From NCBI GenBank assembly GCA_965197865.1, contig CBDANZ010000002.1:72758-136757 (forward strand): a stretch of DNA of 64,000 bases, read 5' to 3'. The stretch comes from Vicinamibacterales bacterium (lineage in GTDB: Bacteria; Acidobacteriota; Vicinamibacteria; Vicinamibacterales; CAVVIG01). Positions within the stretch are counted from its first letter, which is position 1. Every line of letters starts with the position of its first letter. Position numbers and translations under genes: made by a program. Below, piece after piece: positions 1-62,722 of the stretch. Under the pieces are notes generated by a model. The model was not told the DNA's origin and did no database searches. It saw only the letters and a list, made by a program, of their open reading frames with translations.

Positions 1-986
1 TTCGAGCTGGCGATCGCCAATGCCCGGTGGCGCGTGTGGTCGCGCCAGCGACTCAACCGCGCACGGTTCGCCCGCTTTCTCGCGCAGACGCCGCCGACCC
101 ATGTGGTGATGGAGGCGTGTGGCACCGCCCACTACTGGGGGCGGGTCGCCCAGCAACACGGCCATCGCGTCACCCTCGTGCCCCCGGCGTACGTGCGGCC
201 CTACGTGCGGCGCAACAAGACGGACCGGGCGGATGCGGAGGCGATCCGCGAGGCGAGATACCCCGTGTCCCGGTGAAGCGGGTCGAGCAGCAAGCGCTCG
301 TGGCGCTGCACCGGGTGCGCGAGCAGTGGATGACGACGCGGACGGCGCGCATCAATGTGTTACGCGGGCTCTTGCGGGAACAGGGGCTGCTGCTGCCGGC
401 GGGGGCCTGTGCGGCGCTGCGGGCCTTGCCTGTGCTGCTCGACGAGGCGGCCACCGTGTTGCCGAGGCATCTGCGGCAGGTGCTCACGAGCGTCCACGAG
501 GAAGTGCGGGCGATTGAGGCTCGGATTGCCGGCCTGGAACGGGAATTGCGCGCCCTGGCCGACGCCGACCCCGTCGTGATGCGACTGCGGACGATTCCCG
601 GGATTGGGCTGTTGACCGCCACGGCCCTCGTCGGCACCGTCGGGCACATCCACGCATTCCGGCGCGCGCGCCAGTTTGCCAGCTGGCTCGGCCTGACGCC
701 GCGCGAGTACTCGAGTGGGCAGCGGCGGCGCCTCGGGGGGATCAGTAAACGCGGGGACGTGTATCTCCGGTGCTTACTCACCCACGGCGCGCGCGCGGTG
801 CTCGCGTCGGCCCACCGGCGCCGGGCGGCCCAGCAGCCCCTCACGCGTCTGCACCACTGGGCGATGACGGTGCACGCACGGCGCGGCTACAACAAAGCCA
901 CGATTGCCGTGGCGAACAAACTCGGCCGACTCGTTTGGGCGGTTTGGCACAAGGATGTGCCCTGCGCACTGCCGGACGCGGCGTAA
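1..986 (+). pseudogene. DEDD (IS110-type) transposase, frameshifted by a 13-nt deletion
   Basis: The N-terminal part is in the frame of ORF 34..276 and the rest in the frame of ORF 27..986. Copy 2 reads GCGATCCGCGAGGCG-ATCCGGTCGGGCG-AGATACCCC; copy 1 lacks ATCCGGTCGGGCG at about 255/256, between GGCG direct repeats. Confidence 0.85.
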
Positions 987-1238
987 CCCGAGCTACACCT
1001 CCACGCGAGATGCTGAGCGAGTGACCCTGACATGGCCCTTCGGTCCGACCGACACCGCATCAGGCCGATAGCAGCCCTGGCGCTCGACGCCGGCACCACG
1101 ATTGGCCCGCGGTGCGCGACTATCCATGTTGGCCAGGAGGCAAAGGCTCTCCACGGACAGGCCGGATATACGACCGCAACCGACGCGAAGGACCGACCGT
1201 CACGACCCACTCGCTTGATCACCGGGAGGAGTCCATAT
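987..1238 (+). ncRNA. Hypothetical bridge/guide RNA region in the long non-coding right end of the IS1111-like element
   Basis: 252 nt of non-coding DNA lies 3' of the transposase, against only 88 nt 5' of it. It contains CACCACG (1094..1100) and CCACGGAC (1151..1158), which span the insertion point of the target bottom strand GACTTTCACC|ACGGACTG. No structure or expression evidence. Confidence 0.25.
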
Positions 1239-1250
1239 ACGGACTGCTAG
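1239..1250. repeat. Tip of an IS5-type terminal inverted repeat (ACGGACTG) plus CTAG, the target remnant next to IS1111-like copy 1
   Basis: The identical 12 nt flank the right end of copy 2 (36911..36922, reverse complement). Sequence beyond it is unrelated (gtgccgacc here, ggcatcgg at copy 2). Confidence 0.7.
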
Positions 1251-35981: not shown

Positions 35982-36628
35982 TCAGGCCCCGGGCGGCGGG
36001 GCTTGCTCGTCGAAGTGGTGATACCAGTGGGCACCGCTGCAGAATGGTTTGTTCTTGCTTCGCCCGCACCGGCAGAGATGGAAGTGCTCACGTGACGCGC
36101 CCTCGCCCCACTCAACCCCCGGCAACTCGGCGCCGCCCTTGACTGCGTAGGGGCCATTCGGCGCGATCAGAATCATCGGATCGCTGTCGCGATCACGGTG
36201 CTCGACGCCATCGATCGAATAACTGAGCGCACCGGAGGGCACTGTGCGACGGTCGCGATGATCGCGTCCACACTGTCGCCGCGGGGATCGATCCACGGCT
36301 CCTGGCGCATCCGGAACGCTGCCTTCAGGGTGTCTGTGCAACGAGCCGAGTGGGCACAAATGCCGCGATTGTCGTGAATGGTGATTCGCGCGCCGACATA
36401 GGCTTCGCGCTGGTCCGGCACTCTGTCTGGCTCCTCGTCGCCGCTGAAGCCGTTCGTCTTGTGCGTGCCATCGCAGTACGGCTTGTTCTTCGAGCCCCCG
36501 CACCGGCACAACGCGAGCCTTCCCTCTGACTGGTATACCTTGCCGTCGGGGAGCCCCTTGAGCATCCGGTAGTCGGCGACAAGTAGCGGCCCGTTCTCGC
36601 TCGGCGTGATCGTTGGGATATCGCTCAT
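35982..36628 (-). pseudogene. CDGSH iron-sulfur protein (CDGSH, divergent 4Fe-4S mono-cluster, CDGSH), 1-nt frameshift
   Basis: The N-terminal part (36173..36628) has CRCGGSKNKPYCDGTH and ICAHSARC. The C-terminal part is in another frame (SGALSYSIDGVEH...CRCGRSKNKPFCSGAHW). The join is at TGCCCTCCGGT (about 36234..36240). The span is 647 nt, one short of a multiple of 3. Confidence 0.7.
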
Positions 36629-36789
36629 CGTAGTCTACCCATGGCAGTCTACTCCAGGGGGAGACTGTGCCGAAAGCCATGACCCAGCTCAGCAGCCAGT
36701 GATTCGTGACAGCCACCGATGGGCTGTGGCAGATGACACCCGGAGCCGACCTAGCGCGCGCCGCCACCGGCGTCGATCACGTGCCGGTG

Positions 36790-36910
36790 TCGCGGATCGG
36801 CCGCGCCTGCTCAGTGACAACGGGCCGTGCTACCTCTCGGCCCAGCTCGCGACGTATCCCGACACACACGGGCTGCCCCCCCCGCGGAGTGTGCCGTACC
36901 ATCCGATGCC
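36790..36910 (+). pseudogene. rve (DDE integrase-core) transposase fragment cut by the MITE
   Basis: LLSDNGPCYLSAQLATYPDTHGLPPPRSVPYHPMP resembles the DNG..Y.S..F......G......RPYHPQT core region. It ends at the CTAG of the MITE insertion. Confidence 0.5.
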
Positions 36911-36922
36911 CTAGCAGTCCGT

Positions 36923-37174
36923 ATATGGACTCCTCCCGGTGATCAAGCGAGTGGGTCGTGACGGTCGGTCCTTCGCGTCGGTTGCGGTCGTATATCCGGC
37001 CTGTCCGTGGAGAGCCTTTGCCTCCTGGCCAACATGGATAGTCGCGCACCGCGGGCCAATCGTGGTGCCGGCGTCGAGCGCCAGGGCTGCTATCGGCCTG
37101 ATGCGGTGTCGGTCGGACCGAAGGGCCATGTCAGGGTCACTCGCTCAGCATCTCGCGTGGAGGTGTAGCTCGGG
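36923..37174 (-). ncRNA. Hypothetical bridge/guide RNA region (copy 2 equivalent of 987..1238)
   Basis: Same sequence as copy 1's right end; see feature 987..1238. Confidence 0.25.
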
Positions 37175-38215
37175 TTACGCCGCGTCCGGCAGTGCGCAGG
37201 GCACATCCTTGTGCCAAACCGCCCAAACGAGTCGGCCGAGTTTGTTCGCCACGGCAATCGTGGCTTTGTTGTAGCCGCGCCGCGCGTGCACCGTCATCGC
37301 CCAGTGGTGCAGACGCGTGAGGGGCTGCTGGGCCGCCCGGCGCCGGTGGGCCGACGCGAGCACCGCGCGCGCGCCGTGGGTGAGTAAGCACCGGAGATAC
37401 ACGTCCCCGCGTTTACTGATCCCCCCGAGGCGCCGCCGCTGCCCACTCGAGTACTCGCGCGGCGTCAGGCCGAGCCAGCTGGCAAACTGGCGCGCGCGCC
37501 GGAATGCGTGGATGTGCCCGACGGTGCCGACGAGGGCCGTGGCGGTCAACAGCCCAATCCCGGGAATCGTCCGCAGTCGCATCACGACGGGGTCGGCGTC
37601 GGCCAGGGCGCGCAATTCCCGTTCCAGGCCGGCAATCCGAGCCTCAATCGCCCGCACTTCCTCGTGGACGCTCGTGAGCACCTGCCGCAGATGCCTCGGC
37701 AACACGGTGGCCGCCTCGTCGAGCAGCACAGGCAAGGCCCGCAGCGCCGCACAGGCCCCCGCCGGCAGCAGCAGCCCCTGTTCCCGCAAGAGCCCGCGTA
37801 ACACATTGATGCGCGCCGTCCGCGTCGTCATCCACTGCTCGCGCACCCGGTGCAGCGCCACGAGCGCTTGCTGCTCGACCCGCTTCACCGGGACACGGGG
37901 TATCTCGCCCGACCGGATCGCCTCGCGGATCGCCTCCGCATCCGCCCGGTCCGTCTTGTTGCGCCGCACGTAGGGCCGCACGTACGCCGGGGGCACGAGG
38001 GTGACGCGATGGCCGTGTTGCTGGGCAACCCGCCCCCAGTAGTGGGCGGTGCCACACGCCTCCATCACCACATGGGTCGGCGGCGTCTGCGCGAGAAAGC
38101 GGGCGAACCGTGCGCGGTTGAGTCGCTGGCGCGACCACACGCGCCACCGGGCATTGGCGATCGCCAGCTCGAACACGGACTTTGCCAGGTCAACGGCCAC
38201 TGTCGTAGCATCCAT
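37175..38215 (-). CDS. IS110-family DEDD transposase/recombinase (346 aa)
   Basis: Start at MDATTVAVDLAKSVFELAIA, preceded by AGGAGG. The C-terminal region IPGIGLLTATALVGTVG....F...RQFASWLGLTPREYSSG matches the Transposase_20 pattern. Confidence 0.9.
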   Translation of the reverse strand: MDATTVAVDLAKSVFELAIANARWRVWSRQRLNRARFARFLAQTPPTHVVMEACGTAHYWGRVAQQHGHRVTLVPPAYVRPYVRRNKTDRADAEAIREAIRSGEIPRVPVKRVEQQALVALHRVREQWMTTRTARINVLRGLLREQGLLLPAGACAALRALPVLLDEAATVLPRHLRQVLTSVHEEVRAIEARIAGLERELRALADADPVVMRLRTIPGIGLLTATALVGTVGHIHAFRRARQFASWLGLTPREYSSGQRRRLGGISKRGDVYLRCLLTHGARAVLASAHRRRAAQQPLTRLHHWAMTVHARRGYNKATIAVANKLGRLVWAVWHKDVPCALPDAA

Positions 38216-38826
38216 TTCGGTTTCCTCCTGGTTGTGGCTGATGGGCATCAGCTGATGCGGCACATCATGCCGCATCGGAACCGGGAGGAGTCCATACCAT
38301 CATGGTGAAAGTCGGGCGCTGCACCGAGACGAGCGAGGCGCCTCGCGGGCAAGGCGCGACGACCGAGAATACCGCCTGTATTTGATGGAGGAGCAACGCA
38401 GGCCACGAGGATGCATCGCTCGTCGAATGCAGACGGACTTTCACCACGGACTGCTAGCCTTTTGTTCATGGCATTTCTCCGTTCAAAGTGCATGAGCGAT
38501 CTTCGCGCGATGCGGGTGCCCTTGCTCGATCTTCTGCCACTCTCTTTGCATAATTTCACCCAGGATTTCCGGTTTGCCTGCCCCGAACACGCCGATACAA
38601 TACCCACAACCGACTGCCACCGAATCTTCCAGTCGCGGCCCCTCCCGTACCTTGAACGCCAGCCCCGTGACCTGTCCCGAGCCGGAATCGACTGGAGACA
38701 GCTCGGTTCCATCGGGTCCAGGGTCGATTTACGGCACCACCAAGACGCCTCCCCCCGATCGAGTCCTCTCGGTTCCCCCTGATACCACCCCAGTCGGGGA
38801 GATATAGGGGAGACAACACTTCGGTA

Positions 38827-39822: not shown

Positions 39823-39869
39823 TGGTGAGCCAGGACGGAGTCGAACCGTCAACCCGCAGATTAAGAGTC
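39823..39869 (-). repeat. Duplicated 3' half of tRNA-Lys (att-type direct repeat)
   Basis: 47/47 nt are identical to 42545..42591 (tggtgagccaggacggagtcgaaccgtcaacccgcagattaagagtc). The sequences diverge immediately after. Confidence 0.9.
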
Positions 39870-39892
39870 AACACAAGATCAAAGCCGATCGC

Positions 39893-39925
39893 AGCCGACC
39901 TCTGAAAATCGGGGTCGGCTTTTTC
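39893..39925 (+). terminator. Rho-independent terminator candidate
   Basis: AGCCGACC-(12-nt loop)-GGTCGGCT followed by TTTTC (the stem's final T plus this run gives 5 consecutive Ts). Confidence 0.5.
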
Positions 39926-40091
39926 ATTCACGGGTCATCCACTGCCGATTGAGGTCGCGTCTCTCGGAATCCGTTGCACACCTGTTGCACGCGCGACGGG
40001 GCATTCCTCTACCCCTTGGAAAGACTCGAACTCCTCGCGACACGGGTTCTAATCCCCAAGGGGCGGACTAGAAACGCGCCGGGCAGCTTAA

Positions 40092-41572
40092 CAGCCCGTG
40101 GTGAAAGTCGATCGAGCAGCCCCTTGTTATTGGCGAGGGGATCGACAGGATCGATCCCGCTCCTTACACTGTGGCGCATGGCCATGGGCACCCGCGACCC
40201 CGAACAACCTCCGTTGTGGATTGCCGCGTCGGATCTGCCGGTCTCGCCTGGGCATCCGTTCTACACGCGCTTGAATGCGTTGCTGGATGCCGACGGCTTC
40301 GACACCTTCGTGGAAGACGCCTGTCGATCCTTCTACGCGCCGGTGTTGGGCCGCCCGAGTCTGGCGCCCGGTCGCTACTTCCGCTTGTTGCTGGTTGGGT
40401 ACTTCGAAGGCATCGATTCGGAGCGCGGCATCGCATGGCGTGCGGCGGACTCGCTGGCGGTGCGGAGCTTCCTGCGACTCGGGCTGGAGGAGGCGGCCCC
40501 GGATCACTCGACGATTTCGCGCACCCGCCGCGTGATCGATGTGGAGACGCACCGGGCGGTGTTCACGTGGGTCCAGCAGCGCCTGGCGGCCGCCGGCCTG
40601 TTGAAGGGCCGGACGATCGCGATCGACGCGACGACGTTGGAGGCCAACGCCGCCATGCGGAGTATCGTGCGCCGGGACACGGGGGAAGCCTACCAGGCGT
40701 ATCTGACCCGCCTCGCCGCCGCCTCGGGGATCAAGACGCCGACGCGCGAAGTCTTGGCGCGGTTTGATCGCACGCGGAAGAAGAAAACCTCGAACAGCGA
40801 GTGGACCAGCCCCAGTGATCCTGACGCGAAGGTCGCGAAAATGAAAGACGGCCAGACGCACTTGGCGCACAAAGCCGAGCATGCGATCGATCTGGAGAGC
40901 GGCGCGTTGGTCGCGGTGACGGTGCAGGGCGCCGATCAGGGCGACACGAGGACGCTTGTCACGACGGCGATCACGGCGGCCGAACAGGTGGAAGCCGCGC
41001 ACGCGACGACCGACGCGCGCGGGAGGTTGGAGGACATCGTCGCGGACAAGGGCTATCACAGCAACGAGACGATGGTAGACCTGGCTGCGGTGGGCCTGCG
41101 GTCGTACATTTCGGAACCCGACCGTGGCCGGCGCGATTGGTCCGACGCGCCGGATGCGTACGCGCCCGTCCATGGGAATCGCCGCCGTCTCCGGGGCGCC
41201 CGCGGGCGACGCTTGCGGCGGCGACGGGCGGAACTCGCCGAGCGATCGTTTGCCCACCTCTATGAGACCGGCGGGATGCGACGCACGCACTTGCGGGGAC
41301 ACGACAACATCTTGAAGCGTCTACTGATTCATGGCGGCGGCTTCAACTTGGGGCTCGCGATGCGCCAGTGCCTCGGCATCGGCACGCCACGGCGCTTGCA
41401 GGGCCGCGCCGCAGGCGTCTTGGCTGTCTTCATCGCCGTATGGGCGCGCCTCGGCGCTCTCTGGGGGAACCATGAACCAAGATTCGTTGATCGATCGCCG
41501 GGGTCGTCGCCGCGTCATTGTTTTGAGCTGCTACCCGTCGCCGCGTGAATCGCAGGGTTTAAACACAGACTG
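40092..41572 (+). mobile_element. IS5-superfamily element (InsH-type N-domain plus DDE), copy 1, 1481 bp, TTAA duplication
   Basis: TTAA lies at 40088..40091 and 41573..41576. The TIRs are CAGCCCGTGGTGAAAG... and ...AAACACAGACTG. It is near-identical to 61070..62550 in inverted orientation. Confidence 0.85.
40178..41548 (+). CDS. IS5/IS1182-type DDE transposase (456 aa)
   Basis: Start at MAMGTRDPEQ, inside the element. HPFYTRLNALLDADGFDTFVEDACRSFYA..GRPSLAPGRYFRLLLVGYFEGIDSERGI is an InsH-type N-terminal domain. The DDE region includes IAIDATTLEANA. Confidence 0.9.
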   Translation: MAMGTRDPEQPPLWIAASDLPVSPGHPFYTRLNALLDADGFDTFVEDACRSFYAPVLGRPSLAPGRYFRLLLVGYFEGIDSERGIAWRAADSLAVRSFLRLGLEEAAPDHSTISRTRRVIDVETHRAVFTWVQQRLAAAGLLKGRTIAIDATTLEANAAMRSIVRRDTGEAYQAYLTRLAAASGIKTPTREVLARFDRTRKKKTSNSEWTSPSDPDAKVAKMKDGQTHLAHKAEHAIDLESGALVAVTVQGADQGDTRTLVTTAITAAEQVEAAHATTDARGRLEDIVADKGYHSNETMVDLAAVGLRSYISEPDRGRRDWSDAPDAYAPVHGNRRRLRGARGRRLRRRRAELAERSFAHLYETGGMRRTHLRGHDNILKRLLIHGGGFNLGLAMRQCLGIGTPRRLQGRAAGVLAVFIAVWARLGALWGNHEPRFVDRSPGSSPRHCFELLPVAA

Positions 41573-42544: not shown

Positions 42545-42620
42545 TGGTGAGCCAGGACGGAGTCGAACCGTCAACCCGCAGATTAAGAGTCTGCTGCTCT
42601 GCCAATTGAGCTACTGGCCC
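42545..42620 (-). tRNA. tRNA-Lys (anticodon CUU)
   Basis: Reverse complement is GGGCCAGTAGCTCAATTGGCAGAGCAGCAGACTCTTAATCTGCGGGTTGACGGTTCGACTCCGTCCTGGCTCACCA, with anticodon loop CTCTTAA. Confidence 0.95.
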
Positions 42621-57263: not shown

Positions 57264-58692
57264 GGGCTTGTCCCATCCGCTGTTGAAATTCAGCGGCGGC
57301 TCGGGTGACGACTACGCAACCATCCCCGACGATTCATCGAGCCCCAGCTGAGCGTCACGTGCTCGCAACGCGGCGACCAGCACGGGCATGTCCTTACACC
57401 CCTTCACCCGCCGGAATCCTTTGGCCGCTTCCAGCACACCGGCAGCGACCCAGCGGAGCACCATCGTACCCCCGCGCCAGCGTTTCACGTTCCGCTTCAC
57501 GTGGCGTGTCCGGCTCAGGAGGCTCTCGACGGCGTTGGTCGTCGCCAGCGATCGGCGGAGCCGCTCCGAGAGCGGCAACTCGACTACGGTGAGCGTCTCG
57601 TCGAGCCCTTCCCGTATGCTGGCGGCTGCACTCGGATAATCGACGTCCACCCGCCGGGCCAAGTCCTGCAACAAGCGCCGGGCCGCCTTGATGTCGGTGT
57701 GCGTATAGGCGCGCGTGAGGGTCGCCTTCACCCACGGACGCTGGGCCTCGGGCAGATACTCGAGCACGTTGCGCCGTTTATGCACCTGGCATCGTTGTAC
57801 CAGGGCTGCGGGGCCGAAGGTCTGCATCACCGCAGTGTGGAGCGCTTGCGCTCCATCGAGGATGACGAGCAGACTGCGGTCGGTCCGCAGCCCACGGCTC
57901 TGCAGATTGGTCAGCAAGCCCTGACACACGGTCGTGTTCTCCGCTGACCCTTCCCAGAGGCCCAGCGGGTGTTTGGCGCCCGTTTTATCGAGGCCCAGCG
58001 CCACGACGATGCAGTGGCCGCCGACGTGGACCCCATCGATCAGTAGCGCCACCAGCTCGAGGTCGTCGAGCGGCGTCGCCCGCCACGCATCGAGTTGCGC
58101 CTGCGTCTGCGCCACAAACCGCCGACTCACGGCACTCTTGCTTGTGCCCCGCGTGCGGACGTCGGCCCCCAGCGGTTCTAGACTCCGGCCATACTGGCGC
58201 GTGGCCACGCCGATGAGCATCTGTTCGACCACGCGCCGGGTGAGCGGATCCGTGTTCGTACAGGCCTGGACGGATGGCAGCGCGACCTCCTGCCCGTCGC
58301 GCCGCACCCGCGGCCGACGCAGGGCGACCTTGCGGCCCCCCAGCACGACTTCGCTGGGCGCATGGCCCGCCCGAGACGCCCGCCGCGCGGGCTGATGCGC
58401 ATACCGCGGACCGCACACGGCCACGCGATCCGCTTCCAACATCGCCGCGAGGACCTTCAGGCCCGACGCGACGACCAGCTCTTGGAGCTCGGCCTGTGCA
58501 TCGACCAGGATGTCGACCAATGGAAGGTGCCGTGGTGCCGGCAATGCTGATTGGCGCCCACGAACGCCTGTGCCAAACTTCTTCATGGCGGCTCCTTTCT
58601 GGGGGCTTCAGCCCCAGGTTTTCCCACCGGCCGTCTATCACGACCAGCAGGGAGCCGCCGCTTTAAATTTCAACAGCTAGAGGGACATCCCC
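57264..58692 (-). mobile_element. IS256-family element (type a), copy A, 1429 bp
   Basis: The termini are GGGCTTGTCCCATCCGCTGTTGAAATTCAGCGGCGGC (57264..) and the reverse complement of GGGGATGTCCCTCTAGCTGTTGAAATTTAAAGCGGCGGC (..58692). It is near-identical to copy B. Confidence 0.9.
57312..58586 (-). CDS. IS256-family (Mutator-type) transposase, 424 aa
   Basis: LLIDGVHVGGHCIVVALGLDKTG, LVILDGAQALHTAV and VQRCQVHKRRNVLEYLPE. It differs from copy B at one residue (SVQACTN vs SVQAFTN). Confidence 0.92.
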   Translation of the reverse strand: MKKFGTGVRGRQSALPAPRHLPLVDILVDAQAELQELVVASGLKVLAAMLEADRVAVCGPRYAHQPARRASRAGHAPSEVVLGGRKVALRRPRVRRDGQEVALPSVQACTNTDPLTRRVVEQMLIGVATRQYGRSLEPLGADVRTRGTSKSAVSRRFVAQTQAQLDAWRATPLDDLELVALLIDGVHVGGHCIVVALGLDKTGAKHPLGLWEGSAENTTVCQGLLTNLQSRGLRTDRSLLVILDGAQALHTAVMQTFGPAALVQRCQVHKRRNVLEYLPEAQRPWVKATLTRAYTHTDIKAARRLLQDLARRVDVDYPSAAASIREGLDETLTVVELPLSERLRRSLATTNAVESLLSRTRHVKRNVKRWRGGTMVLRWVAAGVLEAAKGFRRVKGCKDMPVLVAALRARDAQLGLDESSGMVA

Positions 58693-59415: not shown

Positions 59416-60844
59416 GGGGATGTCCCTCTAGCTGTTGAAATTTAAAGCGGCGGCTCCCTGCTGGTCGTGATAGACGGCCGGTGGGAAAACCTGGGGCTGA
59501 AGCCCCCAGAAAGGAGCCGCCATGAAGAAGTTTGGCACAGGCGTTCGTGGGCGCCAATCAGCATTGCCGGCACCACGGCACCTTCCATTGGTCGACATCC
59601 TGGTCGATGCACAGGCCGAGCTCCAAGAGCTGGTCGTCGCGTCGGGCCTGAAGGTCCTCGCGGCGATGTTGGAAGCGGATCGCGTGGCCGTGTGCGGTCC
59701 GCGGTATGCGCATCAGCCCGCGCGGCGGGCGTCTCGGGCGGGCCATGCGCCCAGCGAAGTCGTGCTGGGGGGCCGCAAGGTCGCCCTGCGTCGGCCGCGG
59801 GTGCGGCGCGACGGGCAGGAGGTCGCGCTGCCATCCGTCCAGGCCTTTACGAACACGGATCCGCTCACCCGGCGCGTGGTCGAACAGATGCTCATCGGCG
59901 TGGCCACGCGCCAGTATGGCCGGAGTCTAGAACCGCTGGGGGCCGACGTCCGCACGCGGGGCACAAGCAAGAGTGCCGTGAGTCGGCGGTTTGTGGCGCA
60001 GACGCAGGCGCAACTCGATGCGTGGCGGGCAACGCCGCTCGACGACCTCGAGCTGGTGGCGCTACTGATCGATGGGGTCCACGTCGGCGGCCACTGCATC
60101 GTCGTGGCGCTGGGCCTCGATAAAACGGGCGCCAAACACCCGCTGGGCCTCTGGGAAGGGTCAGCGGAGAACACGACCGTGTGTCAGGGCTTGCTGACCA
60201 ATCTGCAGAGCCGTGGGCTGCGGACCGACCGCAGTCTGCTCGTCATCCTCGATGGAGCGCAAGCGCTCCACACTGCGGTGATGCAGACCTTCGGCCCCGC
60301 AGCCCTGGTACAACGATGCCAGGTGCATAAACGGCGCAACGTGCTCGAGTATCTGCCCGAGGCCCAGCGTCCGTGGGTGAAGGCGACCCTCACGCGCGCC
60401 TATACGCACACCGACATCAAGGCGGCCCGGCGCTTGTTGCAGGACTTGGCCCGGCGGGTGGACGTCGATTATCCGAGTGCAGCCGCCAGCATACGGGAAG
60501 GGCTCGACGAGACGCTCACCGTAGTCGAGTTGCCGCTCTCGGAGCGGCTCCGCCGATCGCTGGCGACGACCAACGCCGTCGAGAGCCTCCTGAGCCGGAC
60601 ACGCCACGTGAAGCGGAACGTGAAACGCTGGCGCGGGGGTACGATGGTGCTCCGCTGGGTCGCTGCCGGTGTGCTGGAAGCGGCCAAAGGATTCCGGCGG
60701 GTGAAGGGGTGTAAGGACATGCCCGTGCTGGTCGCCGCGTTGCGAGCACGTGACGCTCAGCTGGGGCTCGATGAATCGTCGGGGATGGTTGCGTAGTCGT
60801 CACCCGAGCCGCCGCTGAATTTCAACAGCGGATGGGACAAGCCC
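59416..60844 (+). mobile_element. IS256-family element (type a), copy B, 1429 bp, inverted relative to copy A
   Basis: It has the same termini as copy A. The flanks are GGACCGGC (59408..59415) and CGCCGGCG (60845..60852). Confidence 0.9.
59522..60796 (+). CDS. IS256-family transposase, 424 aa
   Basis: Identical to 57312..58586 except for one residue. Confidence 0.92.
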   Translation: MKKFGTGVRGRQSALPAPRHLPLVDILVDAQAELQELVVASGLKVLAAMLEADRVAVCGPRYAHQPARRASRAGHAPSEVVLGGRKVALRRPRVRRDGQEVALPSVQAFTNTDPLTRRVVEQMLIGVATRQYGRSLEPLGADVRTRGTSKSAVSRRFVAQTQAQLDAWRATPLDDLELVALLIDGVHVGGHCIVVALGLDKTGAKHPLGLWEGSAENTTVCQGLLTNLQSRGLRTDRSLLVILDGAQALHTAVMQTFGPAALVQRCQVHKRRNVLEYLPEAQRPWVKATLTRAYTHTDIKAARRLLQDLARRVDVDYPSAAASIREGLDETLTVVELPLSERLRRSLATTNAVESLLSRTRHVKRNVKRWRGGTMVLRWVAAGVLEAAKGFRRVKGCKDMPVLVAALRARDAQLGLDESSGMVA

Positions 60845-61069: not shown

Positions 61070-62550
61070 CAGTCTGTGTTTAAACCCTGCGATTCACGCG
61101 GCGACGGGTAGCAGCTCAAAACAATGACGCGGCGACGACCCCGGCGATCGATCAACGAATCTTGGTTCATGGTTCCCCCAGAGAGCGCCGAGGCGCGCCC
61201 ATACGGCGATGAAGACAGCCAAGACGCCTGCGGCGCGGCCCTGCAAGCGCCGTGGCGTGCCGATGCCGAGGCACTGGCGCATCGCGAGCCCCAAGTTGAA
61301 GCCGCCGCCATGAATCAGTAGACGCTTCAAGATGTTGTCGTGTCCCCGCAAGTGCGTGCGTCGCATCCCGCCGGTCTCATAGAGGTGGGCAAACGATCGC
61401 TCGGCGAGTTCCGCCCGTCGCCGCCGCAAGCGTCGCCCGCGGGCGCCCCGGAGACGGCGGCGATTCCCATGGACGGGCGCGTACGCATCCGGCGCGTCGG
61501 ACCAATCGCGCCGGCCACGGTCGGGTTCCGAAATGTACGACCGCAGACCCACCGCAGCCAGGTCTACCATCGTCTCGTTGCTGTGATAGCCCTTGTCCGC
61601 GACGATGTCCTCCAACCTCCCGCGCGCGTCGGTCGTCGCGTGCGCGGCTTCCACCTGTTCGGCCGCCGTGATCGCCGTCGTGACAAGCGTCCTCGTGTCG
61701 CCCTGATCGGCGCCCTGCACCGTCACCGCGACCAACGCGCCGCTCTCCAGATCGATCGCATGCTCGGCTTTGTGCGCCAAGTGCGTCTGGCCGTCTTTCA
61801 TTTTCGCGACCTTCGCATCAGGATCGCTGGGGCTGGTCCACTCGCTGTTCGAGGTTTTCTTCTTCCGCGTGCGATCAAACCGCGCCAAGACTTCGCGCGT
61901 CGGCGTCTTGATCCCCGAGGCGGCGGCGAGGCGGGTCAGATACGCCTGGTAGGCTTCCCCCGTGTCCCGGCGCACGATACTCCGCATGGCGGCGTTGGCC
62001 TCCAACGTCGTCGCGTCGATCGCGATCGTCCGGCCCTTCAACAGGCCGGCGGCCGCCAGGCGCTGCTGGACCCACGTGAACACCGCCCGGTGCGTCTCCA
62101 CATCGATCACGCGGCGGGTGCGCGAAATCGTCGAGTGATCCGGGGCCGCCTCCTCCAGCCCGAGTCGCAGGAAGCTCCGCACCGCCAGCGAGTCCGCCGC
62201 ACGCCATGCGATGCCGCGCTCCGAATCGATGCCTTCGAAGTACCCAACCAGCAACAAGCGGAAGTAGCGACCGGGCGCCAGACTCGGGCGGCCCAACACC
62301 GGCGCGTAGAAGGATCGACAGGCGTCTTCCACGAAGGTGTCGAAGCCGTCGGCATCCAGCAACGCATTCAAGCGCGTGTAGAACGGATGCCCAGGCGAGA
62401 CCGGCAGATCCGACGCGGCAATCCACAACGGAGGTTGTTCGGGGTCGCGGGTGCCCATGGCCATGCGCCACAGTGTAAGGAGCGGGATCGATCCTGTCGA
62501 TCCCCTCGCCAATAACAAGGGGCTGCTCGATCGACTTTCACCACGGGCTG
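61070..62550 (-). mobile_element. IS5-superfamily element, copy 2 (1481 bp), CTAA duplication
   Basis: CTAA lies at 61066..61069 and 62551..62554. Removing the IS plus one CTAA (1485 nt, 3x495) restores the M4 frame ...NIRILSLVHPV.... Confidence 0.88.
61094..62464 (-). CDS. IS5/IS1182-type DDE transposase (456 aa)
   Basis: The amino-acid sequence is identical to 40178..41548 as far as it was read. The nucleotide differences seen are synonymous (for example GGC/GGT). Confidence 0.9.
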   Translation of the reverse strand: MAMGTRDPEQPPLWIAASDLPVSPGHPFYTRLNALLDADGFDTFVEDACRSFYAPVLGRPSLAPGRYFRLLLVGYFEGIDSERGIAWRAADSLAVRSFLRLGLEEAAPDHSTISRTRRVIDVETHRAVFTWVQQRLAAAGLLKGRTIAIDATTLEANAAMRSIVRRDTGEAYQAYLTRLAAASGIKTPTREVLARFDRTRKKKTSNSEWTSPSDPDAKVAKMKDGQTHLAHKAEHAIDLESGALVAVTVQGADQGDTRTLVTTAITAAEQVEAAHATTDARGRLEDIVADKGYHSNETMVDLAAVGLRSYISEPDRGRRDWSDAPDAYAPVHGNRRRLRGARGRRLRRRRAELAERSFAHLYETGGMRRTHLRGHDNILKRLLIHGGGFNLGLAMRQCLGIGTPRRLQGRAAGVLAVFIAVWARLGALWGNHEPRFVDRSPGSSPRHCFELLPVAA

Positions 62551-62722
62551 CTAAGCCTCGTGCATCCGGTACAAAGGCAGGACGTCTTCGACGCTCCACT
62601 GGATGTGCTTTTCAGTTTCTACCTAAACGCCTTCTATTCGCATCGATCTGGAGTGATGGTCTATGGCGAAGGTCTGCCCAGCGGCGTGTACTTCGCGGGT
62701 CAACACTGGAATTACCTTTCTG
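62551..62722 (+). pseudogene. M4 metalloprotease, third fragment
   Basis: SLVHPVQRQDVFDAPLDVLFSFYLNAFYSHRSGVMVYGEGLPSGVYFAGQHWNYLSG follows the NAF...M.YGDG pattern. It is cut before the HExxH by the next IS256-family element. Confidence 0.7.

What the first reader, a model, noticed from the sequence alone, without database searches (positions are those of the whole stretch)
36911..38457. IS1111-like (IS110-family) element occupies the same offset inside the terminal inverted repeat of an IS5-type MITE at two loci; its long 3' end carries target-spanning matches (candidate bridge RNA)
Seen in sequence: excising 36923..38303 rejoins CTAG-CAGTCCGT (36911..36922) with GGTGAAAGTCGGG (38304..). 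This yields a 158-bp element with 18-nt perfect TIRs (CAGTCCGTGGTGAAAGTC) flanked by CTAG at both sides. The two 1481-bp IS5-like copies have the same TIR (1 mismatch) and also YTAR 4-bp duplications (TTAA, CTAA). The truncated copy at the window start is followed by the identical ACGGACTG-CTAG (1239..1250) and then by unrelated DNA. That indicates an independent insertion at the same position, 8 nt from the TIR tip. The element has 17-bp subterminal IRs, an 88-nt 5' leader and a 252-nt non-coding 3' end, which is the IS1111-subgroup layout. Within that 3' end, CACCACG (1094..1100) and CCACGGAC (1151..1158) both span the insertion point of the target strand GACTTTCACC|ACGGACTG. Established knowledge: IS110-family recombinases use an element-encoded bridge RNA with target- and donor-binding loops, and some IS1111 members insert specifically into IRs of other transposons. 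Inference: this element is programmed to parasitise the TIR of a resident IS5/MITE family.
Basis: partly seen in the sequence, partly recalled or inferred. Interest (0 to 1): 0.7.

Follow-up and report, generated by a model that had tools for sequence, protein, structure and literature searches.

The report
RNA-guided IS targeting IS5-type ends
This is a previously unnamed IS1111-type (IS110-family) insertion sequence from uncultured soil Acidobacteria that uses its own guide RNA to insert at one fixed position in the terminal repeat of IS5-type elements and their miniature derivative; this kind of behaviour and mechanism is already known, so it is a clean new example rather than a new system.

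Summary
A 1381-bp IS110-family element (window 36923..38303, minus strand; a second, truncated copy at 1..1238) splits the 18-bp terminal repeat of a 158-bp MITE, 8-9 nt from its tip. Fourteen related insertions with distinct outer flanks, in the window and in public assemblies, sit at the same offset and in the same orientation in the same about 22-bp target. That target is the end of IS5/IS1182-like elements, or of the MITE, plus part of the flanking CTAG.

The element meets every tested IS1111 criterion. These are the DEDD transposase, 16-17-bp subterminal repeats, 7-bp and 3-bp terminal extensions, a 252-nt 3' non-coding region and no target duplication.

The 3' region matches a covariance model built only from relatives with other targets (119.5 bits). 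It folds into a two-loop bridge/seekRNA supported by covariation.

The second (CCACGGAC) is a chance match. The real second guide is UAGCAGCCC (37084..37092), which is complementary to the repeat tip plus TA of the flank.

Both the mechanism (seekRNA/bridge RNA, 2024) and the habit of targeting other transposons' end repeats (IS1383 into IS1384; IS4321/IS5075 into Tn21-type) are published. Verdict: new member of a known kind, moderate interest.

The parts
36923..38303 (-). Complete IS1111-type element, copy 2 (1381 bp). With the 7-bp/3-bp extension convention it is 36922..38302.
   Evidence: Excision restores the MITE repeat. Identical elements with the same ends occur in L001-L003.
37175..38215 (-). 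Transposase/recombinase gene, 346 aa, with a DEDD N-terminal domain and a C-terminal domain carrying GLTPREYSSG
   Evidence: Pfam PF01548 (3.5e-14) and PF02371 (3.8e-26). NCBIfam NF033542, 309.6 bits. Translation.
38280..38303 (-). Left end: terminal extension (A)TGATGGT followed by the subterminal inverted repeat ATGGACTCCTCCCGGT
   Evidence: The repeat is conserved across more than 80 relatives.
38237..38276 (-). Two perfect hairpins in the 88-nt leader (GATGCGGCA..TGCCGCATC and AGCTGATG..CATCAGC), upstream of the ribosome-binding site AGGAGGA (38223..38229)
   Evidence: Read from the sequence. Their function was not tested.
36976..37121 (-). Bridge/seekRNA region, copy 2: a small 5' hairpin, the target-binding loop and the donor-binding loop
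   Evidence: Covariance model R1, built without family A, scores 119.5 bits (E 1.4e-29). Consensus structure and covariation.
37083..37094 (-). 5' strand of the target-binding loop, GAUAGCAGCCCU. UAGCAGCCC (37084..37092) is complementary to the top strand of the right flank, GGGCTGCTA (repeat tip plus TA of the flank).
   Evidence: The homologous segment is the reverse complement of the right flank in about 30 target families.
37058..37069 (-). 3' strand of the target-binding loop, GGCACCACGAUU. CACCACG (37061..37067) has the same sense as the left flank plus CG.
   Evidence: In family B, C/T covaries with the left flank (TTCCCG versus TTCCTG).
37031..37043 (-). 5' strand of the donor-binding loop, GACUAUCCAUGUU. 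CCAU pairs with ATGG of the left terminal extension.
   Evidence: Covariation across families: CCAU/ATGG, UCAU/ATGA, ACAG/CTGT, ACAU/ATGT (read by eye).
36987..36997 (-). 3' strand of the donor-binding loop, GGAUAUACGAC, with the same sense as the right-end extension plus CG (ATAT-ACG)
   Evidence: AUAUGCG variants co-occur with right junctions ...ATATGCG (L042-L044, L048, L161).
37003..37010 (-). Judged not to be a guide.
   Evidence: It varies among relatives with the identical target.
36923..36946 (-). Right end: -35-like TTGATC (36941..36946), subterminal repeat ACCGGGAGGAGTCCAT, extension AT(A). Together with the left end it would form TTGATC-17 nt-T|ATGAT on a circle junction.
   Evidence: A TTGNNN hexamer is enriched at this fixed offset in 89 relatives (mean 3.0 matches to TTGACA against 1.0-1.8 at other offsets).
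1..1238 (+). Copy 1 of the element, cut by the window start. A 13-nt deletion near 251 frameshifts the transposase gene. The RNA region 1040..1185 is intact, with guides at 1069..1077 and 1094..1100.
1239..1250 (+). Right flank of copy 1, ACGGACTG-CTAG (repeat tip plus flank), followed by DNA unrelated to the flank of copy 2
36911..36922 (+). CTAG duplication plus the outer 8 nt (CAGTCCGT) of the split MITE repeat
38304..38457 (+). Rest of the 158-bp MITE (38304..38453), including its intact, unoccupied second repeat (38436..38453), and the CTAG duplication (38454..38457)
   Evidence: MITE copies about 82% identical carry the same insertion in L005, L050 and L109.
40092..41572 (+). IS5/IS1182-like element, copy A (1481 bp, TTAA duplication). 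Its left end, 40088..40109, is an unoccupied target with 2 mismatches.
61070..62550 (-). IS5/IS1182-like element, copy B (CTAA duplication). Its left end, 62533..62554, is an unoccupied target that matches the 9-nt guide fully.

Best explanation
The element is an autonomous IS1111-type member of the IS110 family. It comes from Vicinamibacterales (Acidobacteriota).

**Encoded parts.** It encodes a DEDD recombinase. Downstream of that gene it encodes a guide RNA of about 145 nt with two internal loops, of the kind called bridge RNA or seekRNA.

**Target-binding loop.**
- The 5' strand, UAGCAGCCC, pairs with the top strand of GGGCTGCTA. That sequence is the outer 7 nt of the host element's terminal repeat (the last G of the crossover triplet ACG plus GGCTG) plus TA of the flanking YTAR duplication.
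- The 3' strand, CACCACG, pairs with the bottom strand opposite CACC-ACG, just inside the crossover.
- The two matches overlap by one base.

**Donor-binding loop.** It reads the element's own abutted ends. CCAU pairs with ATGG of the left extension, and AUAUACG has the same sense as the right extension plus CG.

**Recombination.** Exchange occurs at A|CG, between a circular copy of the element and the target GACTTTCACCA|CGGGCTGCTAG. The element is inserted in one orientation, with the transposase gene reading outward towards the repeat tip. No target duplication is made.

**Consequence for the host.** The insertion separates the outer 8-9 bp of the host element's terminal repeat from the rest. 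This presumably disables that end.

**Shown here:** family membership, element anatomy, the fixed target, offset and orientation, a conserved RNA structure with covariation, and guide-flank covariation across families.

**Inferred from published work on the family:** the circular intermediate, a junction promoter, RNA expression and processing, the catalytic serine, and inactivation of the host element.
For: **Family membership.** Pfam and NCBIfam hits. Named relatives at 48-51% identity are ISPa25 and ISPpu25.

**Fixed target.** The two window copies plus L001, L002, L003, L004, L016, L017, L050, L060, L072, L109, L122 and L184 all carry the right flank ACGG[G/A]CTG[C/T]TA. Where the left side is held, the left flank is ..TTT[C/A]ACC or ..TTGCACC. 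Outer flanks differ, and transposase identity ranges from 65 to 99%.

**Host elements.** The IS5-like transposase gene starts just inside the occupied end in L001 and L017. In L060 the hit lies on the other strand, so the element there appears to occupy the opposite end. L002 holds both an IS5-like copy and the disrupted larger element ISX. MITE copies are occupied in L005, L050 and L109.

**RNA structure.** RNAalifold on 48 sequences gave 18 pairs, 11 of them with compensatory changes. 94.5% of cells are paired. The covariation score is 0.444, against 0.148 in shuffles (0 of 500 reach it) and 0.03-0.06 for slid structures. A model built from 38 sequences of other target families hits the window only at the two 3' ends, at 119.5 bits.

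**Guide-flank matches across about 30 target families.**
- Antisense 10-mer of the right flank: at least 9/10 matches in 18% of own pairings against 0.1% of cross-family pairings.
- Sense 9-mer of the left flank plus CG: at least 8/9 in 15% against 0.6%.
- Explicit covariation was read in family B (TTCCCG/TTCCTG and CCCTGC/CCTTGC), family C and many metagenome families.

**Agreement with the literature.** The order, top-strand complement 5' of the bottom-strand match with the two overlapping in the target, is the published IS1111 seekRNA rule (PMC11187229).
Against: - No expression data exist, so the RNA, the circle and the promoter are inferred.
- The single-sequence fold is not more stable than shuffles (z = -0.65). 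The structural support therefore comes from covariation only.
- The left-flank guide is short, about 4 nt plus ACG. A first left-flank test that left out the core showed no enrichment.
- Three good targets in the window are unoccupied.
- The left core triplet in the window element is ATG while the guide has ACG. This needs a crossover after the first base, or mismatch tolerance.
- The left flank of copy 1 lies outside the window.
Confidence: 0.88

Rival explanations
1. One reading: both CACCACG (1094..1100) and CCACGGAC (1151..1158) are target guides, each spanning the insertion point.
For: Both strings are present and match the MITE-type target GACTTTCACC|ACGGACTG. CCACGGAC carries the MITE-specific GGAC variant.
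Against: - CCACGGAC is the 3' end of the inner hairpin (..CUCC) plus a linker. Only two to three positions are free.
- Relatives with the same target carry GTA, TCA, ACA, GCA or AGA there.
- It lies in the donor-loop half of the RNA.
- Both strings have the same sense, whereas the family rule needs one antisense and one sense segment. The antisense segment, UAGCAGCCC, exists elsewhere.
- An 8-mer match to an 18-nt target somewhere in 252 nt has a chance of roughly 0.08 (my estimate).
Confidence: 0.04
2. Target choice is made by the protein alone, which recognises the IS5-type terminal repeat. The 3' non-coding region would serve another role, for example end recognition or regulation.
For: The target is conserved across relatives with 65-99% identical transposases. 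No experiment was done here.
Against: The loop strands change together with both flanks in about 30 families, while the protein scaffold and the stems stay conserved. seekRNA/bridge RNA dependence and reprogramming have been shown experimentally for IS1111 and IS110 members (PMC11187229, PMC11208160).
Confidence: 0.04
3. The shared junctions do not reflect repeated site-specific insertion. Instead, one ancestral composite (the element inside the repeat) was copied by duplication, homologous recombination or co-mobilisation with its host element.
For: The two window copies share 13 nt of right flank and are near-identical. MITEs and IS5-like elements are themselves mobile and could carry the insert along.
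Against: - The same offset is occupied in at least three different host elements: the 1481-bp IS5-like type and relatives only 54-67% identical to it, the larger element ISX, and MITE copies about 82% identical.
- The occupied hosts have CTAG, CTAA, TTAG and CTAC flanks and sit in different genomes.
- A host repeat split 8-9 nt from its tip is unlikely to remain mobile.
Confidence: 0.04

Closest known systems
IS1383 of Pseudomonas putida H, which integrates specifically into the inverted repeats of IS1384 (Muller, Lauf & Herrmann 2001, Mol Genet Genomics 265:1004; cited in PMC11208160)
   Same: An IS1111-group element whose specific target is the terminal inverted repeat of another insertion sequence. 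It is site- and orientation-specific.
   Different: - The host phylum differs (Acidobacteriota versus Pseudomonas).
- The target sequence differs. Here both guide strands are identified, and the target runs into the flanking duplication.
- The paper itself is not held, so sequence-level comparison with IS1383 was not possible.
- The Pseudomonas relatives found here are only about 48-51% identical.
[quoted passage not shown]
   Same: IS1111 family with subterminal repeats and a long 3' non-coding region. Insertion is at one position and orientation inside another transposon's terminal repeat, with no target duplication.
   Different: The target here is the repeat of an IS5/IS1182-type insertion sequence and its MITE, not of a Tn3-family transposon. 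Sequence relatedness is distant (below 51%).
IS1111-family seekRNA elements ISEc11, ISKpn4, ISPst6, ISPa11 and ISPa25 (Siddiquee et al. 2024, PMC11187229)
   Same: - The RNA is encoded downstream of the transposase gene.
- The top-strand complement lies 5' of the bottom-strand match, and the two overlap in the target.
- The terminal extensions are 7 bp and 3 bp.
- The GL-P----SG motif is present.
- ISPa25 is the closest named relative (51% identity).
   Different: Their targets are a short linear site, attC sites or REP sequences. Here the target is an IS end. No biochemical evidence exists for this element.
IS621 / IS110-group bridge RNA (Durrant et al. 2024, PMC11208160; Hiraizumi et al. 2024, PMC11208158)
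   Same: A two-loop RNA reads the target and the donor on both strands. The recombinase has a DEDD domain and a serine-bearing domain, and the donor is circular.
   Different: In the IS110 group the RNA is in the left end and the guide order is reversed. Subterminal repeats there are only 2-3 bp. The core here behaves as A|CG rather than CT.

Membership tests
IS110 family (DEDD RNA-guided recombinases) | Transposase with an N-terminal DEDD/RuvC-like domain (PF01548) and a C-terminal PF02371 domain | tested here: met
   (E 3.5e-14 and 3.8e-26). NCBIfam NF033542 scores 309.6 bits against a cut-off of 140.
IS1111 group | Subterminal inverted repeats of 11 bp or more | tested here: met
   TATGGACTCCTCCCGGT pairs with ACCGGGAGGAGTCCATA over 16-17 bp. 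Conserved in relatives.
IS1111 group | Asymmetric terminal extensions, 7 bp on the left and 3 bp on the right (PMC11187229, Introduction) | tested here: met
   TGATGGT lies before the left repeat and ATA after the right repeat, once the 1-nt ambiguity is resolved this way.
IS1111 group | Long non-coding region downstream of the transposase gene, with a short leader upstream | tested here: met
   252 nt downstream against 88 nt upstream.
IS1111 group | GL-P----S(T)G motif in the C-terminal domain | tested here: met
   GLTPREYSSG is present in the translation. The motif definition comes from PMC11187229.
IS1111 group | Site- and orientation-specific insertion without target duplication | tested here: met
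   14 insertions share offset and orientation. Excision restores an intact repeat with no duplicated bases beyond the 1-nt ambiguity.
seekRNA / bridge RNA of the IS1111 type | Conserved structured RNA in the 3' non-coding region with internal loops | tested here: met
   (covariation 0.444 against 0.148). (119.5 bits with a model built from other target families). No Rfam family exists or matches.
seekRNA / bridge RNA of the IS1111 type | A segment complementary to the target's top strand lies 5' of a segment complementary to its bottom strand, and the two overlap in the target | tested here: met
   UAGCAGCCC (37084..37092) lies 5' of CACCACG (37061..37067), and they overlap at one G.
seekRNA / bridge RNA of the IS1111 type | The RNA is expressed, binds the transposase and is required for transposition | not testable with these tools
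   This needs RNA-seq, co-purification or transposition assays.
IS1111 group | Circular intermediate with abutted ends that creates a junction promoter | tested here: inconclusive
   At the sequence level only: TTGATC-17 nt-T|ATGAT would form, matching 9 of 12 consensus positions. A TTGNNN hexamer is enriched at this offset in relatives. No circle junction reads are available.
IS5 / IS1182 superfamily (host element) | DDE_Tnp_1-type transposase, terminal inverted repeats and a 4-bp YTAR duplication | tested here: met
   DUF772 and DDE_Tnp_1 domains. TTAA and CTAA duplications. However, NCBIfam IS1182 and IS5 models score below their cut-offs (166 against 270; 82 against 140), so the subfamily is left open.

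The most novel reading that the evidence does not exclude
A wide clade of IS1111-type elements may be specialised as RNA-guided hyperparasites of IS5/IS1182-type elements. Their first guide strand starts with a near-constant GAUA(A/G)C, which would read the (Y)TA of the host's YTAR target duplication plus the repeat tip. The rest of the guide would then be reprogrammed as host repeats diverge.

Hints:
- Family A keeps this target across relatives with 65-99% identical transposases.
- A second lineage (L057/L084, about 72% identical) sits about 90 nt upstream of a very different IS5-superfamily transposase gene, with right flank ..GAACGCGT-type tip plus TTAG.
- Dozens of metagenomic relatives have right flanks ending GTTAG.

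The alternative is that GAUAAC is a scaffold constraint that simply forces GTTA into any target.
Probability: 0.25. Interest if true: 0.55.

Novelty: new member of a known kind. Interest (0 to 1): 0.35.

Why it matters
- It adds a naturally programmed RNA-guided recombinase from an uncultured phylum, with both target and donor guides assigned and many natural reprogramming examples around it. This is useful comparative material for defining guide rules in the IS1111 branch, which is less studied than IS621.
- It documents transposon-on-transposon parasitism in soil Acidobacteria, including three-level nesting.
- It shows that the recognised site runs across the junction between the host's terminal repeat and its target duplication. 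Only integrated host copies in certain flanks are therefore perfect targets.
- It does not open a new mechanism.

Tried and rejected
- **Rfam scan of the region.** Only chance-level hits. No bridge/seekRNA family matched.
- **Exact-protein look-up of the 366-aa ORF version.** Nothing on record. The 346-aa version gave L001 and L002.
- **Longest-common-substring and 8-mer left-flank tests.** These were too crude. The left-flank test without the core showed no enrichment. It became informative only when the two core bases were included.
- **My early pairing GCGGU/ACCGC as the closing stem of the donor loop.** Dropped, because covariation supports CACCGC/GCGGUG closing the target loop.
- **Single-sequence folding.** It reproduces the target loop but is not significant.
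- **Whether the Pseudomonas relatives also target an IS end.** An IS1182 transposase gene lies about 600 nt away in L034 and none is present in L030 or L038. Left unresolved.
- **Partridge & Hall 2003.** Could not be read.
- **A short rve-like fragment just upstream of the MITE (36609..36911).** No Pfam hit.
Full report
**1. The observation**

On the minus strand, window 36923..38303 holds a 1381-bp element. It has one long ORF (37175..38215, 346 aa), an 88-nt leader and a 252-nt 3' non-coding region.

Removing the element joins CTAG-CAGTCCGT to GGTGAAAGTC. This restores a 158-bp element with perfect 18-nt terminal repeats (CAGTCCGTGGTGAAAGTC) and CTAG on both sides.

A second copy runs from the window start to 1238 on the plus strand. 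It is followed by ACGGACTG-CTAG-G, after which its flank no longer matches that of copy 2. Copy 1 differs from copy 2 by two substitutions and a 13-nt deletion that frameshifts the ORF.

The 22-nt target plus flank is found intact three more times in the window, against 0.00 expected:
- the MITE's other end (38436..38457);
- the left end of one 1481-bp IS5-like copy (40088..40109, TTAA flank);
- the left end of the other copy (62533..62554, CTAA flank).

- Only the left end of the IS5-like element resembles the MITE repeat.
- The boundary has a 1-nt (A) ambiguity.
- Copy 1 is a pseudogene copy.

**2. What the element is**

The ORF carries PF01548 and PF02371. It scores 309.6 bits on the NCBIfam model 'IS110 family RNA-guided transposase'.

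The element has 16-17-bp subterminal inverted repeats. It has a 7-bp left extension (TGATGGT) and a 3-bp right extension (ATA). The long non-coding region lies downstream of the gene. The protein contains GLTPREYSSG. There is no target duplication. These are the published criteria for the IS1111 group (PMC11187229).

The closest named relatives are ISPa25 (51% identity) and ISPpu25 (48.6%). More than 7,900 relatives exist in public protein data, many at 79-90% identity. The genomes that carry close relatives are Vicinamibacterales/Vicinamibacteria MAGs.

**3. Is the target really fixed?**

Exact-protein look-up and the genome and metagenome scans gave further members of this lineage, here called family A (65-99% transposase identity).

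Together with the two window copies there are 14 insertions with distinct outer flanks. The public loci are L001, L002, L003, L004, L016, L017, L050, L060, L072, L109, L122 and L184. All carry ...CCATAT|ACGG[G/A]CTG[C/T]TA on the right. Where the left side is held, it reads ..TTT[C/A]ACC or ..TTGCACC. L005 has the same left flank, but its right flank is cut off by the contig end. Orientation is always the same, with the right end of the element facing the repeat tip.

The occupied hosts differ:
- IS5-like elements whose transposases are 54-67% identical to the window's (L001, L017, L060).
- A larger IS5-family element (here ISX, with SWIM and DDE_Tnp_1 domains) in L002. ISX is itself interrupted by the 1481-bp IS5-like element at a TTAA.
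- MITE copies about 82% identical to the window's, in L005, L050 and L109.

The window MITE matches the terminal 100 bp of ISX, so it is a deletion derivative of that type of element. This rules out a single ancestral composite as the general explanation.

**4. The RNA**

The 3' regions of 48 diverse relatives align. RNAalifold gives 18 consensus pairs, 11 of them with compensatory changes.

On that structure 94.5% of cells pair. The covariation score is 0.444, against 0.148 in column shuffles (0 of 500 reach it) and 0.03-0.06 when partners are slid by 1-3 columns.

The architecture, in order:
- a small 5' hairpin;
- a closing stem (CACCGC/GCGGUG);
- a GCC/GGC stem;
- a 12+12-nt internal loop around a short hairpin;
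- a second internal loop closed by GCG/YGC and GGCC/GGCC around a second hairpin.

A covariance model built from 38 sequences, none of them from family A, hits the window at exactly two places: 1040..1185 (+) and 36976..37121 (-). Both score 119.5 bits (E about 1e-29). Nothing else scores better than E = 0.1. Rfam has no matching family. The single-sequence fold reproduces the first loop but is not more stable than shuffles.

**5. The guides**

*Target loop, 5' strand.* In the window element the 5' strand of loop 1 is GAUAGCAGCCCU. UAGCAGCCC is the exact reverse complement of GGGCTGCTA. That sequence is the last base of the crossover triplet, the outer bases of the IS5-like repeat, and TA of the flanking duplication.

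*Target loop, 3' strand.* The 3' strand is GGCACCACGAUU. CACCACG has the same sense as the left flank plus CG.

*Agreement with the published rule.* The order and the one-base overlap match the rule for IS1111 seekRNAs.

*The same positions follow the flanks in other families:*
- Family B elements with left flank CTTCCCG carry UUCCCG, and those with CTTCCTG carry UUCCUG. Their 5' strands (CCCUGC or CCUUGC) follow right flanks GCAGGG or GCAAGG.
- Family C has GCUCGCUCG for left flank GCTCGCTCG, and CGACUG for right flank CAGTCG.
- About 30 target families in all show the pattern. Examples are L123 at 10/10, and L119 and L172 at 9/10.

*Numbers.* At least 9/10 antisense matches occur in 18% of own pairings against 0.1% of cross-family pairings. 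At least 8/9 sense matches occur in 15% against 0.6%.

*Donor loop.* The second loop reads the element's own ends:
- CCAU pairs with ATGG of the left extension. Across families this covaries as UCAU/ATGA, ACAG/CTGT and ACAU/ATGT.
- AUAUACG has the same sense as the right extension plus CG. AUAUGCG variants occur where the right junction reads ATATGCG.

Family A members with the identical target carry different bases there. It is best explained as chance.

*Best-matched target.* The guide matches the IS5-like end perfectly. The MITE/ISX end (GGAC instead of GGGC) gives one C-A mismatch. The best-matched target is therefore the IS5-like repeat, and the MITE is a tolerated variant.

**6. The crossover**

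Left junctions usually read LT-A-TG-extension, and right junctions read extension-A-CG-RT. The guides carry ACG.

Variants with a GCG right junction and an AGG left junction occur in L042-L048. These fit exchange after the first base of a three-base core, with the remaining two bases staying with their original partner. This is an inference from junction sequences only.

**7. Expression**

Joining the ends would create TTGATC-17 nt-T|ATGAT. A TTGNNN hexamer is enriched at this fixed offset in 89 relatives. This agrees with junction promoters reported for the family. It was not tested here.

**8. Comparison with what is known**

- RNA-guided target choice in IS1111/IS110 elements (PMC11187229; PMC11208160).
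- IS1111-group elements that specifically enter the terminal repeats of other mobile elements: IS1383 into IS1384, and IS4321/IS5075 into Tn21-family transposons (references).

New here:
- the element itself, which has no named relative above 51% identity;
- its phylum;
- the particular IS5/IS1182-like host family and its MITE;
- the fact that the recognised site runs into the host's target duplication.

I file it as a new member of a known kind.

**9. Open side question**

Many metagenomic relatives have first-strand guides beginning GAUAAC and right flanks ending GTTAG. One further lineage (L057/L084) sits about 90 nt upstream of a distant IS5-superfamily transposase gene.

Two readings remain open. 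The pattern may reflect a broad specialisation on IS5-type ends next to YTAR duplications. Or it may be a scaffold constraint on the guide. In the Pseudomonas relatives the nature of the target could not be settled.

Noticed in passing
window 39823-39901 and 42545-42620 (minus strand): Two tRNA-Lys(CTT) genes share an identical 47-nt 3' part. They flank 2.7 kb that contains IS5-like copy A. This looks like an att-type duplication left by an integrated element, or a local duplication.
   Followed up: no
window 57264-58692 and 59416-60844: Two identical 1429-bp copies of an IS256-type element (Transposase_mut, E 2.7e-42) lie in inverted orientation 723 bp apart. This may be a composite structure.
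   Followed up: partly
window about 251 (copy 1): Relative to copy 2, 13 nt (GGCGATCCGGTCG) are missing between short direct repeats. This frameshifts the transposase gene, while the guide-RNA region stays intact. Copy 1 could still supply RNA or ends in trans.
   Followed up: partly
L002 1-4300: Three-level nesting. The IS1111-type element sits in the right end of a larger IS5-family element (SWIM and DDE_Tnp_1 domains). That element's gene is itself split by the 1481-bp IS5-like element at a TTAA. The unoccupied IS5-like left end lies only about 500 bp from the occupied end.
   Followed up: yes
L081-L200 (metagenome sample), for example L082, L089, L096, L150, L162, L167, L200: Many IS1111 relatives share a first guide strand starting GAUAAC and right flanks ending GTTAG(G). 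Several guide-target pairs are complete only if G-U wobble is allowed. It is unclear whether these targets are IS ends, REP-like repeats or a scaffold constraint.
   Followed up: partly
L006-L015, L023 (family B, 70% identity): These relatives carry about 200 extra nt between the guide RNA and the right end. Two loci (L007, L010) have a 40-nt duplication of the right end. Their left junction does not show the usual core triplet, so their exact crossover is unresolved.
   Followed up: no
window 38237-38276 (minus strand): Two back-to-back perfect hairpins lie in the leader between the left repeat and the ribosome-binding site. They are conserved in close relatives. They may block read-through or regulate translation.
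   Followed up: no
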